64,000 nt of DNA from Eledone cirrhosa. Taxonomy: Eukaryota. The notes below the pieces were generated by a model, which saw nothing but the letters and a program-made list of their open reading frames with translations, ran no database searches and had not been told where the DNA came from. Numbering within the stretch: the stretch's first letter is position 1; each line of letters starts with the position of its first letter. Positions 4,222 to 58,261 of the stretch are shown one piece after another. The stretch covers positions 54,312,001 to 54,376,000 of the forward strand of contig OZ024744.1 in assembly GCA_964016885.1 (NCBI GenBank), read 5' to 3'. Made by a program: the position numbers and the translations under genes.

Positions 4222-7200
4222 CCTTTTCAGATGATTTGTCCTCTATTGAAGCAATGCGAGGGGACACTGTAATATGGTCACCTAGAATATATATACAAAA
4301 CCATAGTAAACCTACATGTATATATACAAATAAATTTGCAAATACAAGAAACAGTTATTAGATTCATTATCTCTGATATATACATATATAAACCAGGTCC
4401 AAAGACAAATGGACCAAACTCCCTCTGTCCCCCGAATATATATATATATACATATATTTATATATATAGAGAGAGGATAAAATACTGAATAACTAAGTAG
4501 ATGATGTTTAAATTATAACTTACCCTTTTCAGTTGATTTTTGCTCACTTGAAGCAATGCGAGGTGACACTATAATATGGTCACCTAGAATATATAAACAA
4601 AATTATATTAAATCTACATGTATATATAAAAATAACATTACAAATACAGGAAACTGTTATTACAATCATTATCTCTGATATATACATATATACATTAGGT
4701 CCAAACATATGTACCAAACTCCCACAGCCCCTGCCATATATATATATATATAGTTATATAGTGAAATAATTAAATACGCCAACTGCTTAGATCTGTAAAT
4801 ATACATTTACTACTAAATTTTCTATAATCATGGCAACAGTCCTAATAAAGAAAATGTATTCTTACATACACATGCACAAAGATTGCACACACAGAACCTC
4901 ACACTGACACAAACAAAAACTGGGCTCACACACACTCAAAAATGCATCACCAGAGAAACACACCCAAACAGGTACACAATGAATTAATATACAACCCAAT
5001 ACACCTATATCTATACATCAACATACACATAATACCAACATCACTTCACTTATATATGTACACACTATTTTATTCATTATGTCCACCATACACATTACAT
5101 AAACTTCCATGTATACAAATATACAACATAATATTAATTTGATATTAATGTTGAAACACATGTAATAGTTTTCTGTACTAACTGGTAGGAATGGGTTTGA
5201 AATACAACTTACTTTCTTTTGATCCACCTCTTTTGTGTGTGCCTGATTCAGAGACAAAGATCTCTACAGGAGTCACACCTGGAAAAAAATATACAGAAGA
5301 AAAGAATAATAAAAGCTAGAAGGCTTTCTTGAGAAGAGTTTGTTGTCAAGTTGAAGAAAGGGTAGAATGAGTTGTCAGTTGTTTAATCAACTACATCAAA
5401 TTATACGGTTCGTTCTCTCAATGACATGCTTACTTATCCCACAAATCTTCAACTTCCAAAAGGAGTAAATTGTGGCTATTCATATGTGGGATGTCAAGAA
5501 TTATGAGAGAAATATTCTACAGTTTCCCACTGGTCCTGAAGATCAGCTATATATAGTGGTGTAACCAAATATTTAGGGTACTGGCTGATGTAGTGGAGAA
5601 GGGGATGCAGTGTATGAACAATGAAGGGTGACAAGAAATTGTGAAGAACTGTAGGATAAAGTTTTGATAAGGAAGAGAATACTGATCTCTGAAATAATTC
5701 AATCAATCTCATGAATCTAGTGCAACATTTATCTTCTCATTTGAACAACATGTAAGGGCATTCTTTCTCAGCTATCTCTGAAAATGCCCTCAAAAAGGTC
5801 TTTGAGGAAGTCAATAAAATGTTTATTCTAGATTATGTTATCGAGTTTGTAATATAGAATTTGATGTTGTTGACTGAATTAAGTAGTTATAAATTTACTG
5901 TTGAAAACCTAAATAAGTTACTGAATAACATATTACATGATGTTTAAATTATAACTTACTCCTTTGAGTAGTTTTAGGCTTCCTTGCAGCACTGGGATGG
6001 GACACGGTAATATGGTCACCTAGAATATATAAACAACATCATAGTAAACCTACACGTATATATACAATTAACATTACAAATACAGGAAACTGTTATTAAA
6101 TTCATTATCTCTGATATATACGTATATACACCAGGTACAAACACAAATGGACCAAACTCCCTCTGTCCCTGGCATATATATATATTTCATCATCATCATC
6201 ATCATCATCATCATTTTACGTCCGCTTTTCCCTGCTTGCAAGGGTGGGACGGGAACTGATTCTGGCTTGATTTGTACAGCTGGATGCCCTTCCTAACACC
6301 AACCTCATTTACAGTGAGTGCTCGGTGCTTTTTTTCCGTGGCACCTACACGATCACTTTGCAGTGGAATGATAGCGACCTCTCCCTATCATCTCATCTCT
6401 ACAGCTGAGTAAAGTGGAGCAATGTGAAATAAAGTGTCTTGCTCAAGGAAACAACATATCACCCGGTCTGAGAATTGAACTCACAGCCTTTCGATTGCAA
6501 GGCCAATGCTCTAACCACTAAGCCATGTGCCTCCATATATATATATATATATATATATATATATATATATATATATATATATGTGTGTGTGTGTATATGT
6601 GTATATATATATATATATATATATATATATATATGTATATATATATATATATATATATGTATATATATGTATATATATATATATATATATGTATATATAT
6701 ATATATATATATGTATATATATATATATATATATGTATATATATATATATATATATATATATGTATATATATATATATATATATATATATATGTATATAT
6801 ATATATATATATATATATATATGTATATATATATATATATATATGTATATATATATATATATATATATGTATATATATATATATATATATATATATATGT
6901 ATATATATATATATATATATATATATATATATGTATATATATGTATATATGTATATATGTATATATGTATATATATATATATATATATATATATATATGT
7001 ATATATATATATATATATATATATATATACATATATATATATATATACATATATATATATATATATATACATATATATATATATATATATACATATATAT
7101 ATATATATATATACATATATATACATATATATATATATATATATATATATATACATATATATATATATATATATATATATATATATACACATATACACAC

Positions 7201-58200: not shown

Positions 58201-58261
58201 CTCTTTTCAGTAGCTTCAGGATTCATTGCAGCACTGGGAGGGGACACTGAAATATGGTCAT
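4222..58261 (-). CDS. Internal part of a predicted spliced gene: 40 phase-1 mini-exons (13 x B-C-A plus one extra A) encoding a ~62-aa tandem repeat; start and stop exons not identified
   Basis: A exons (60 nt, ttctag|GTGACCAT...|gtaagt, [19 protein letters not shown]): 4222-4281, 4524-4583, 7887-7946, 10519-10578, 13049-13108, 15592-15651, 18439-18498, 24009-24068, 30753-30812, 33239-33298, 35645-35704, 43983-44042, 46298-46357, 52866-52925. C exons (66 nt, tttttccag|...GAAA|gtaagt, [21 protein letters not shown]): 5213-5278, 8576-8641, 11210-11275, 13738-13803, 16283-16348, 19128-19193, 24700-24765, 31442-31507, 33930-33995, 37134-37199, 44668-44733, 46989-47054, 57432-57497. B exons (60 nt, DHITVS[H/R/P][11 protein letters not shown][K/R]): 5960-6019, 9323-9382, 11957-12016, 14485-14544, 17030-17089, 19875-19934, 25446-25505, 32182-32241, 34677-34736, 37881-37940, 45413-45472, 47973-48032, 58202-58261. 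All lengths are multiples of 3, with no stops or indels and intact AG/GT. No transcript evidence available. Confidence 0.75.
6187..6535 (-). mobile_element. tRNA-derived SINE with RTE-derived 3' tail, co-amplified in units 1-11
   Basis: A box TGGCTTAGTGG, B box GAGTTCAATTC, central ccttgagcaagacactttatttcac, 3' part matching the RTE 3' UTR at ~23650-23870, (GAT)n tail. Other copies ~9514-9844, 12184-12525, 14676-15026, 17221-17571, 20100-20444, 25637-25975, 32373-32717, 34904-35245, 38072-38378, 45632-45920 (head lost). Confidence 0.85.
6536..7828. repeat. Long interrupted (TA)n microsatellite; similar tracts follow each unit
   Basis: TA repeats with G/C interruptions, locally a 24-nt period (~7570-7810). 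Others at ~9845-10460, 12526-12990, 15027-15530, 17572-18380, 25976-26275, 32718-33180, 35246-35587, 38379-38646. Confidence 0.97.
20574..23564 (+). pseudogene. RTE EN-RT ORF with in-frame TGA at 21009-21011 and a PHD-like finger at 22773-22904
   Basis: Track ORFs 20487..21011 and 21069..23564 share a frame: [11 protein letters not shown] versus [12 protein letters not shown] in family 2. Confidence 0.9.
20574..23870 (+). mobile_element. RTE-clade LINE (family 1), slightly 5'-truncated, one nonsense codon
   Basis: APE endonuclease ([26 protein letters not shown]), RT ([29 protein letters not shown]), RRLRWYGHV and [11 protein letters not shown]-terminus, (GAT)n tail, inserted in (TA)n. Confidence 0.95.
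26442..29276 (+). pseudogene. PLE RT-GIY-YIG ORF, N-terminally truncated, one in-frame TGA at 29061-29063
   Basis: Track ORFs 26391..29063 and 29091..29276 share a frame: [19 protein letters not shown]...[12 protein letters not shown]. Confidence 0.88.
29487..29533 (+). promoter_or_regulatory. Candidate internal pLTR promoter (NRF1-like and YY1-like motifs)
   Basis: GCGCATGCGC at 29487-29496 and AAAATGGCG at 29525-29533; the same two motifs occur in the same order in the diverged relative (63329-63338 and 63303-63311, minus strand). Confidence 0.5.
29580..29624 (+). ncRNA. Minimal hammerhead ribozyme in PLE pLTR
   Basis: agtca CTGAAGA g gtcaca-gagtg-tgtgac GAAA g-aa-c TA tgact; predicted cleavage between 29619 and 29620. 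Confidence 0.88.
29987..30122 (-). ncRNA. Inverted copy of the long-stem-II hammerhead
   Basis: Reverse complement of 30141-30286 lacking a 10-nt duplication. Confidence 0.72.
30141..30286 (+). ncRNA. Hammerhead ribozyme with very long stem II
   Basis: ttattt CTGAAGA cggtatatatatgtgttgg...ctaacacatatatatccta GAAA cgatcg TT aaataa; palindromic stem III. Confidence 0.72.
35886..36680 (+). mobile_element. 5'-truncated RTE family 1 copy
   Basis: Nearly identical to 23063-23870; (GAT)n tail; lies in the short TA run of the unit-10 A-C intron; no clear TSD. Confidence 0.95.
38648..42706 (+). mobile_element. RTE LINE (family 2), apparently near full length, inactivated
   Basis: Upstream leader, [12 protein letters not shown] start, TGA at 39537-39539 and an ~8-nt deletion near 39560 versus the 53.4-kb copy, RT ORF 39760..42210 with PHD-like finger, ~113-bp tandem duplication in the 3' UTR (42357-42588), (GAT)n tail. 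Confidence 0.93.
42719..43898 (-). mobile_element. 5'-truncated RTE family 2 copy, tail-to-tail with the previous one
   Basis: ORF 43076..43900 nearly identical to the C-terminus of 39760..42210; (GAT)n tails separated by ~12 nt of TA. Confidence 0.93.
45961..46120 (+). mobile_element. Solo 3' terminus of the Hydra-like PLE
   Basis: Reverse complement of ~1571-1728 with scattered differences; between (TA)n tracts. Confidence 0.9.
46018..46084 (+). ncRNA. Hammerhead ribozyme (Hydra-like PLE family)
   Basis: ttttat CTGATGA aaacacaaatatt...gatgtttgttttt GAAA tgcgca TA ataaaa. Confidence 0.87.
47087..47274 (-). mobile_element. tRNA-derived SINE (Meta-domain-like) with 19-bp TSD
   Basis: TSD tacagaagtaaagaataat at 47068-47086 and 47275-47293; B box GAGTTCAAATCC; gcctttcatccctacggggtcgataaaataaagtaccag; absent from all other units. 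Confidence 0.88.
49617..49661 (-). ncRNA. Hammerhead ribozyme, same family as 29580-29624
   Basis: agtcaCTGAAGAggtcacagagtgtgtgacGAAAggacTAtgact on the minus strand. Confidence 0.87.
49729..49773 (+). ncRNA. Hammerhead ribozyme, same family
   Basis: agtcaCTGAAGAgatcacagagtgtgtgacGAAAggacTAtgact. Confidence 0.85.
51869..52233 (+). repeat. 37-bp minisatellite inside the Helitron
   Basis: aggcgtgcagacagacagtcgtgcagagaggtgatat about 9 times; shorter arrays at ~48673-48815, 50367-50531, 51053-51142. Confidence 0.93.
52657..52769 (+). mobile_element. Short 3' end of RTE family 2
   Basis: Matches 42583-42706 including the (GAT)n tail. Confidence 0.85.
53093..54556 (+). mobile_element. RTE family 2 fragment (EN domain to just before RT)
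   Basis: Track ORF 53148..54932 matches the 39.2-40.6 kb element up to EIVAEMLK, then leaves it. Confidence 0.9.
54975..55125 (+). mobile_element. Decayed tRNA-derived SINE fragment
   Basis: ggctttgtggttaagg head remnant and actttatttcccgttgctccagtctactcagctg, resembling the core of the unit SINE. Confidence 0.5.
55180..57305 (-). mobile_element. Degraded RTE LINE (EN to RT YADD region)
   Basis: Frameshifted ORFs 57125..57343, 56627..57106, 55717..56436 and 55262..55675 are homologous to family 2. Confidence 0.9.

What the first reader, a model, noticed from the sequence alone, without database searches (positions are those of the whole stretch)
4222..58261. A protein-coding mini-exon array hidden in what looks like a satellite
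Seen: every ~2-kb unit has three minus-strand segments of exactly 60/66/60 nt bounded by (y)AG and GTAAGT, all phase 1-1. All 40 are stop- and indel-free, while introns carry many indels and >25 kb of TE insertions, none in an exon. The most diverged copies (57432-57497 [21 protein letters not shown]; 58202-58261 [19 protein letters not shown]) keep length, frame and splice sites. Spliced B-C-A gives [62 protein letters not shown] x13 (2478 nt with the extra A). Established: symmetric phase-1 exons can be duplicated or skipped without frameshift, as in titin PEVK exons. Inference: a copy-number-variable, possibly combinatorially spliced, disordered repeat protein that I do not recognise. Caveat: the central copies are so young that lack of stops alone is weak evidence.
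Basis: partly seen in the sequence, partly recalled or inferred. Interest (0 to 1): 0.92.

Follow-up and report, generated by a model that had tools for sequence, protein, structure and literature searches.

The report
Octopod giant mini-exon repeat gene family
What looks like satellite DNA is part of a 185-kb octopus-type gene built from 133 tiny in-frame exons, one of about 17 related genes that keep their reading frame and splice sites while their protein sequence changes freely; no relative was found in the databases searched, and expression could not be tested.

Summary
In detail: 27 exons of 60 nt and 13 of 66 nt, all AG/GTAAGT, phase 1-1, open only in that frame. They are the first 40 of 133 mini-exons in a 185-kb gene. 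It starts 12 kb upstream of the array with a 73-codon ATG exon (basic amphipathic helix, two Cys, no signal peptide) and ends in a short terminal exon. The predicted protein is 2,748 aa and S/T/P/K-rich. The octopod genome holds 17 first-exon and 18 terminal-exon copies; each gene examined has amplified its own exon unit. Selection is evident: 0 stops against 5.9 expected, no frameshift, and 3 of 133 exons disabled against 10 of 63 in a sister pseudogene. Amino acids are nearly unconstrained (omega 0.9-1.4), and exons diverge faster than introns between subfamilies (42% vs 22%). No homologue was found. The architecture resembles schistosome SmPoMuc and primate NBPF, but it belongs to neither family. 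No RNA was available, so transcription and exon skipping are untested.

The parts
4222..58261 (-). First 40 of 133 phase 1-1 mini-exons of one gene. Parts outside the window: the first coding exon E1 (220 nt, ATG, 73 aa, basic, phase-1 donor GTAAGT) at L001:6087-6306 = G000:C28:54382087-54382306; 93 further mini-exons down to G000:C28:54198245; and the terminal exon (acceptor AG, two codons, TAG; AATAAA 204 nt in) starting at G000:C28:54196965 (in L018).
58262..64000 (-). 3' part of intron 1 (the intron runs on beyond the window's high end to E1, 6.1 kb outside)
52866..58261 (-). Triplet 1 (diverged 5' copies): B0 58202-58261, C0 57432-57497, A 52866-52925
46298..48032 (-). Triplet 2: B 47973-48032, C 46989-47054, A 46298-46357
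43983..45472 (-). Triplet 3: B 45413-45472, C 44668-44733, A 43983-44042
35645..37940 (-). Triplet 4: B 37881-37940, C 37134-37199, A 35645-35704
33239..34736 (-). Triplet 5: B 34677-34736, C 33930-33995, A 33239-33298
30753..32241 (-). Triplet 6: B 32182-32241, C 31442-31507, A 30753-30812
24009..25505 (-). Triplet 7: B 25446-25505, C 24700-24765, A 24009-24068
18439..19934 (-). Triplet 8: B 19875-19934, C 19128-19193, A 18439-18498
15592..17089 (-). Triplet 9: B 17030-17089, C 16283-16348, A 15592-15651
13049..14544 (-). Triplet 10: B 14485-14544, C 13738-13803, A 13049-13108
10519..12016 (-). Triplet 11: B 11957-12016, C 11210-11275, A 10519-10578
7887..9382 (-). Triplet 12: B 9323-9382, C 8576-8641, A 7887-7946
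4524..6019 (-). Triplet 13: B 5960-6019, C 5213-5278, A 4524-4583
4222..4281 (-). Extra A exon (302-nt local duplication)
59576..59638 (-). Decayed A-like exon copy in intron 1 (acceptor reads CG). Decayed counterparts occur in distant paralogues.
59290..59357 (-). Decayed C-like exon copy in intron 1 (in-frame stop, donor site deleted; low end approximate)
59209..59952 (.). Inverted duplication of the C-donor flank (59209-59275 and 59886-59952) at the 5' edge of the array

Best explanation
A real protein-coding gene of an octopod multigene family. SHOWN: the structure is ATG exon E1 (73 aa), then 133 symmetric 60/66-nt exons, then a terminal exon, and it gives one 2,748-aa open frame. About 17 such genes arose by whole-gene duplication, and each gene examined amplified its own exon-plus-intron unit. 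Selection keeps frame, exon length and splice signals but not residue identity, and it lets exons diverge faster than introns between subfamilies. INFERRED: the arrays grow and shrink by unequal crossing-over and gene conversion, helped by the (AT)n tracts between units. The protein is intracellular (no signal peptide, no transmembrane stretch). A basic amphipathic N-terminal helix with two invariant Cys and K/R clusters targets it to chromatin/nucleus or to a membrane face. It drags a very long S/T/P/K-rich, probably phosphorylated, low-complexity tail that works by length, charge and multivalency rather than by a fixed sequence. My single most likely setting is the germline (a VCX- or NBPF-like fast-evolving ampliconic family; about 0.35-0.4). 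Neural or other somatic scaffold about 0.2; immune or recognition role about 0.15. Some exon skipping is likely (about 0.5) but is not shown.
For: Complete gene model with one stop, at the end. E1 is intact in 15 of 17 copies, and its only indel between intact subfamilies is 6 nt. The terminal stop is TAG in 3, TAA in 7 and read on for 19 further codons in 7 of 17 copies examined. Frame test: 2 of 123 unique exons from four genes have a stop in the phase-1 frame, against 77 and 116 in the other frames. Tree-based counts for this gene: 0 stops vs 5.9 expected (P 0.003); one 3-nt indel in 126 exon columns vs 17 indels in 270 flank columns, so 0 frameshifts vs about 5 expected (P 0.006). Over seven genes: 2 stops vs 13.1 expected. 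Natural control: the paralogue with a stop in E1 has 10 of 63 exons disabled vs 3 of 133 here (P 0.0008). On unique sequences it is 9 of 58 vs 3 of 76 (P 0.03), and frame-breaking 4 vs 0. Splice signals are nearly invariant over 96 A-class and 39 C-class unique copies. Subfamilies whose exons differ at 38-42% of bases keep the 60/66 lengths, while their introns differ at 22-25% with 8-12 indels (P 1e-5 and 0.004; also without CpG sites). E1 differs at 14.5% vs 3.2% in the adjoining intron. The E1 model has helices 3-25 and 27-46 with pLDDT about 90 over residues 1-40; hydrophobic moment 0.7, net charge +12, highest 19-residue hydropathy 0.5.
Against: There is no transcript or protein evidence. 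Omega is 0.9-1.4 in mini-exons and 0.55-0.93 for E1 between subfamilies, so the classic dN/dS sign of purifying selection is absent or weak. Paralogues with an intact E1 still carry defects: among 366 catalogued copies, 4 have a stop or frameshift with intact splice sites and 14 have lost a splice site. Part of the family may therefore be decaying. The copies are young and related, and gene conversion makes the P values optimistic. Exon excess divergence is not seen in every pair (C18 vs C28:4.5 Mb, 16% vs 16%). FoldIndex does not call the C18-type repeat disordered. Tissue and localisation rest on analogy only.
Confidence: 0.72

Rival explanations
1. The family was functional but this copy, or the whole family, is now silent or decaying. 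The clean exons are an inheritance amplified by neutral satellite-like turnover.
For: Omega is near 1. At least 2 of 17 genes are pseudogenes, one array has no first exon within the 50 kb fetched, and three more genes hold a stop or frameshift exon. Many window exons are identical, for example 9 of 40 share one sequence.
Against: 0 stops and 0 frameshifts among about 200 inferred exon substitutions within this gene. It differs significantly from the sister pseudogene. E1, terminal exon and polyA signal are intact.
Confidence: 0.13
2. A secreted or surface mucin of the SmPoMuc type: the S/T/P-rich repeats are O-glycosylated, and a signal peptide lies in an upstream exon that I did not find.
For: S+T+P is 35% of the repeat. 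The exon-intron tandem architecture, microsatellite spacers, pseudogenes and introns more alike than exons match what PMC2576457 describes (passages). A T-rich tract lies before the ATG.
Against: E1 begins with a conserved ATG, with in-frame stops upstream and no AG directly before it. It is strongly basic, with no hydrophobic stretch anywhere in the predicted proteins.
Confidence: 0.07
3. A diversity-generating system: exons are skipped combinatorially to give cell- or individual-specific isoforms for recognition or immune use.
For: All exons are phase 1-1, and only one end/start pairing could create a stop on skipping. Exons that lost a splice site are tolerated (3 of 133). Exons diverge faster than introns.
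Against: The exon copies within a gene are nearly identical, so skipping would change length more than sequence. Donors are strong consensus GTAAGT-type. No extracellular targeting signal.
Confidence: 0.12
4. A non-coding satellite whose units carry chance splice-like motifs.
For: Tandem 1.4-2 kb units with long (AT)n tracts.
Against: Frame-specific absence of stops across divergent subfamilies. In-frame length variants of 54 and 63 nt. A conserved ATG exon and terminal exon flank the arrays in the same orientation.
Confidence: 0.02

Closest known systems
Schistosoma mansoni polymorphic mucins, SmPoMuc (PMC2576457; passages read)
   Same: Multigene family with pseudogenes. A small exon plus flanking introns is repeated in tandem, units are separated by microsatellites, repeat number differs between genes, and introns are more alike than exons between clusters.
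   Different: SmPoMuc has a 22-aa signal peptide, is secreted, uses one 27-nt exon (up to about 20 genomic repeats) and has 13 further exons after the repeat. Here there is no signal peptide, a basic first exon, 60/66-nt exons in doublets or triplets (up to 133) and almost no C-terminal domain. SmPoMuc splice variants are shown; here they are untested.
Primate NBPF genes with Olduvai (DUF1220) triplets (PMC9584774, PMC13028154; passages read)
   Same: Lineage-specific family of about 20 genes with pseudogenes (23 and 9 in PMC13028154). A helical N-terminal region is followed by a variable number of intragenic exon-intron units arranged as higher-order triplets that look like satellite DNA.
   Different: No Pfam Olduvai match for the sequences scanned. 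Each Olduvai unit is a two-exon module of about 1.6 kb; here each single exon is a 20- or 22-residue module. Different phylum, no sequence link found.
Human VCX/VCY (PMC6790999; passages read)
   Same: Multicopy genes for nuclear proteins. A basic N-terminus with a variable repeat tail is recalled, not seen in the passages read. One pair here sits head to head as an inverted duplication (C28:45.21/45.25 Mb).
   Different: VCX/Y are small, sex-linked and germ-cell-specific; their repeats lie within one exon (recalled). Sex linkage and expression could not be established here.
Disordered proteins assembled from symmetric class 1-1 exons, such as calpastatin and MAP2 (PMC3632108; abstract and section 19 read); titin PEVK (recalled)
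   Same: Symmetric phase-1 exons encoding low-complexity intracellular modules that arose by internal tandem duplication.
   Different: Those are conserved single-copy genes with defined binding motifs (recalled). This family is multicopy with nearly unconstrained residues and 20-133 modules per gene with an intact first exon examined in full.

Membership tests
SmPoMuc-type polymorphic mucin | Tandem exon-plus-intron genomic repeats separated by microsatellites in a multigene family | tested here: met
SmPoMuc-type polymorphic mucin | N-terminal signal peptide; secreted | tested here: not met
   E1 net charge +12 over residues 1-42; highest 19-residue hydropathy 0.3-0.9 in four predicted proteins. 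An unseen upstream exon is not excluded.
SmPoMuc-type polymorphic mucin | Multiple splice variants per gene and O-glycosylation | not testable with these tools
   No RNA run available; glycosylation needs protein
NBPF/Olduvai | Olduvai (DUF1220) domain sequence | tested here: not met
   Pfam scan of E1 and one C exon: no Olduvai match; only a sub-threshold Cas2 hit. The 19-residue A/B exons were too short to scan.
NBPF/Olduvai | Higher-order intragenic triplet repeats with different copy number per paralogue | tested here: met
   B-C-A triplets here, A-A-C at C28:43.4 Mb, doublets on C18; a likeness of architecture only
VCX/VCY-like ampliconic germline family | Germ-cell-restricted expression and nuclear localisation | not testable with these tools
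   No RNA; K/R clusters in E1 are only a motif-level hint
VCX/VCY-like ampliconic germline family | Sex-chromosome linkage | tested here: inconclusive
   Marker searches for the Z-linked SPAG9: PF16471 gave no match; PF09744 matched C1 and C1420, but that family is not specific to SPAG9
Titin PEVK exons | Exons embedded in a gene with Ig/Fn3 domains; P/E/V/K-dominated composition | tested here: not met
   The gene model has only E1, mini-exons and a two-codon terminal exon; P+E+V+K is 33%, with S and T dominant

The most novel reading that the evidence does not exclude
An undescribed octopod family in an evolutionary arms race (germline conflict or self/non-self recognition). It makes 50-300 kDa proteins whose tail length and charge pattern are varied three ways: by gene copy, by exon amplification within each gene, and by skipping among more than a hundred interchangeable exons, all behind one conserved basic targeting helix.
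Probability: 0.15. Interest if true: 0.9.

Novelty: new variant of a known kind. Interest (0 to 1): 0.68.

Why it matters
A 133-exon gene and about 16 relatives sit in sequence that repeat masking would probably discard, which may be why no homologue turned up in the protein collections searched. The family shows selection acting on frame and module length while residues drift or diversify, with a built-in pseudogene control. That makes it a clean system for asking what a long low-complexity tail is selected for. It would be a cephalopod parallel to NBPF/Olduvai and SmPoMuc, and one RT-PCR or long-read RNA run per tissue would test it.

Tried and rejected
RNA test: the one run search, with E1, listed no RNA holder. 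The three runs it gave (one sample, one study) were laid on a paralogue stretch holding E1 and three mini-exons. They cover introns as well as exons and show no exon-to-exon joint among the rows shown, so they behave as DNA and say nothing on expression. Homology: E1 against 5.8 billion proteins gave none at E<=0.01 (single sequence, longer proteins; 8-row alignment, near and longer lengths). Only proteins up to 2,000 aa were covered, so full-length relatives could be missed. The 1.84-billion library gave 4 hits; the three I read are unrelated repeat proteins, two of which look like bacterial adhesins, scored by summing weak matches. ESM Atlas: no usable hit. Pfam: nothing over cut-off. Foldseek of the E1 model against PDB: no match. 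The mini-exon peptides were too short for the protein search, so the repeat itself was never searched against protein collections. Z-linkage: inconclusive. TE avoidance of exons: not significant. Literature: three searches aimed at such an octopus family, one broader one and passages of three listed papers showed no description of it. The library lacks most subscription papers, and bioRxiv supplements were closed. Earlier scan notes held nothing for this place or for E1. Loci not examined in full: only 5 genes were catalogued nearly end to end (this one, C28:45.25, C28:46.5, C28:28.8, C18:9.3 Mb); the others were sampled. Ancient decayed copies and weak matches (bit score under 100) were left out of the tree-based counts, as were the two pseudogenes.
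Full report
Observation. Scripted extraction finds exactly the 40 segments described: 27 of 60 nt, 13 of 66 nt, 2,478 nt, all AG...GTAAGT on the minus strand. Read in phase 1, none has a stop, whereas 28 and 40 of 40 do in the other frames. Introns hold long (AT)n tracts and six large insertions of about 20-24 kb in all, several with LINE-like open frames (the LINE label is my recognition, not a database result). 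Lack of insertions in exons is not significant by itself (18 insertions, 11.4% target, P about 0.11).

Organism. The window is G000:C28:54312001-54376000 in a 3.0-Gb assembly. The genome has molluscan haemocyanin genes. One domain scores 203 bits against PDB 1js8, 167-172 against 6r83/4yd9 and at most about 96 per domain against the other chains whose per-domain scores were shown. From memory 1js8 is octopus, 6r83/4yd9 squid and the rest mainly gastropod, so this is a cephalopod, most likely an octopod.

The whole gene. The array continues for 93 more exons below the window and ends at C28:54198245. 1.3 kb further on lies an acceptor followed by two codons, TAG, and AATAAA 204 nt in. Upstream, a region shared with five paralogues contains a 220-nt exon that starts with ATG, encodes 73 residues and ends in phase 1 (L001:6087-6306). 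Between these two exons lie 133 mini-exons: 130 intact (one is an in-frame 63-nt variant) and 3 that have lost the acceptor AG; none has a stop or frameshift. Spliced in silico they give 2,748 aa, 295 kDa, pI 9.6, S 16%, T 11%, K 10%, P 8%, with 120 SP/TP sites. Two decayed copies in intron 1 show what unselected copies look like.

The family. The first exon has 17 matches, on C28 (10), C18 (6) and C159 (1). The terminal exon has 17 near-full matches and one split match among 22. They pair in orientation over 51-224 kb; the copies on small contigs may be assembly duplicates. E1 is intact in 15 of 17; C28:46.47 Mb has a stop and C28:28.78 Mb is frameshifted. The E1 tree has two well-supported subfamilies and a three-copy branch within one of them. 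Each gene examined amplified its own unit: B-C-A here, A-A-C at 43.4 Mb, mostly A at 46.5 Mb, a 60/66 doublet of very different sequence on C18, and a longer unit at C28:4.5 Mb. The terminal stop is TAG in 3, TAA in 7 and read through in the 7 C18-type copies, of 17 examined.

Selection. Parsimony on a tree of unique copies gives 0 stops against 5.9 expected in this gene and 2 against 13.1 over seven genes. Exon columns have one 3-nt indel against 17 distinct indels in 270 flank columns. The pseudogene at 46.5 Mb has 10 of 63 exons disabled against 3 of 133 here (P 0.0008; on unique sequences 9 of 58 vs 3 of 76, P 0.03). Splice signals are nearly invariant. Yet omega is 0.90-1.43 in mini-exons and 0.55-0.93 for E1 between subfamilies. 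Between this subfamily and the other two, exons differ at 42% and 38% of bases against 22% and 25% in the intervening intron, with or without CpG sites. E1 differs at 14.5% against 3.2% in its intron. The C18 versus 4.5-Mb pair shows no such excess. This fits diversifying selection, or gene conversion that homogenises introns and is resisted in exons; either way the exons are visible to selection. Against a uniformly healthy family: among 366 copies from genes with intact E1, 4 carry a stop or frameshift with intact splice sites and 14 have lost a splice site. Copies are not independent, so the P values are optimistic.

The protein. E1 is modelled as two helices (3-25, 27-46; pLDDT about 90 over residues 1-40; pTM 0.42) followed by coil. 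It has hydrophobic moment 0.7, charge +12, and invariant C14 and C28 in the 8 rows aligned. No signal or transmembrane stretch is present. From general knowledge, such a segment could be a nuclear or nucleic-acid-binding signal or an S-acylated membrane anchor; I cannot separate these. The tail is low in aromatics, borderline by FoldIndex here (57% of windows disordered) and not disordered by that measure in the C18 type. Short beta-prone stretches in each module leave a partly structured repeat possible.

Mechanism. Shown: gene structure, family, frame and splice constraint, free or accelerated residue change. Inferred: turnover by unequal crossing-over and conversion at microsatellite-bounded units; an intracellular, N-terminally targeted protein whose long tail acts by length and charge; germline expression as the single most likely setting, by analogy with other fast-evolving multicopy families. 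Exon skipping is permitted by the phases (only one possible pairing would make a stop) but is untested.

Comparison. The closest architecture is SmPoMuc (PMC2576457, passages), down to introns being more alike than exons, but that protein is secreted. NBPF/Olduvai (PMC9584774, PMC13028154, passages) shares the triplet higher-order repeat and the birth-and-death family. Symmetric 1-1 exons building disordered proteins are established (PMC3632108, abstract and one section). No sequence homologue of E1 was found, and the repeat could not be searched. The literature searches made showed no description of the family.

Verdict. A real feature and very probably a real, undescribed gene family: a known kind of architecture at unusual scale, in an intracellular-type protein, with function and expression open. 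Interest 0.68.

Noticed in passing
G000:C28:45210021 (-) and 45247072 (+); L028, L032: Two family members sit head to head as a large inverted duplication; their first exons differ by one residue.
   Followed up: partly
G000:C28:28781256-28874143 (L052-L061): The most diverged member is a pseudogene with only a few mini-exons found over 92 kb (63, 66, 56, 63 nt). It keeps older exon types near the 3' end that the window's gene lacks, a possible picture of the state before amplification.
   Followed up: partly
G000:C18:9333331 (L042) and C28:4670981, 90311, 126800431: A 63-nt exon near the 3' end of C18-type genes has a GC donor (GCAAGT) where the 28.8-Mb copy has GT. At two loci it is preceded by a short inverted partial copy.
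   Followed up: no
G000:C28:44.19-44.23 Mb and 45.47-45.56 Mb (L096-L100, L113-L117): Further mini-exon arrays with no first exon in the stretches fetched. The 44.2-Mb one has a terminal exon and 4 of 16 exons disabled.
   Followed up: partly
G000:C28:54259096 (L012): One C exon starts with GA; joined to an exon ending in T it would make a stop, the only such pairing in the gene.
   Followed up: no
window 39556-42207, 21012-23561, 26367-29060 (+), 2634-4001 (-), 55265-57124 (-): Long open frames of retrotransposon-like insertions in the introns; the labels are my recognition only.
   Followed up: no
L001:7000-8850: A 1.8-kb (CAC/CAA)-rich tract upstream of the first exon, inside the region shared by the paralogues; it reads as poly-Thr/His/Pro but was not tested as an exon.
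   Followed up: no
L019:7127-9280 and L018:2150-4190: A tandem repeat of about 300 nt that ends at a run of N, and a short-period C/T-rich tandem array, just downstream of the terminal exon.
   Followed up: no
window 48676-52234: Four clusters of a 37-nt tandem repeat inside the insertion between exons A 52866 and B 48032.
   Followed up: no
G000:C1:173.7-173.9 Mb, C26:21.9-22.0 Mb, C27:61-67 kb: Several haemocyanin gene copies, including an inverted pair on C26.
   Followed up: no
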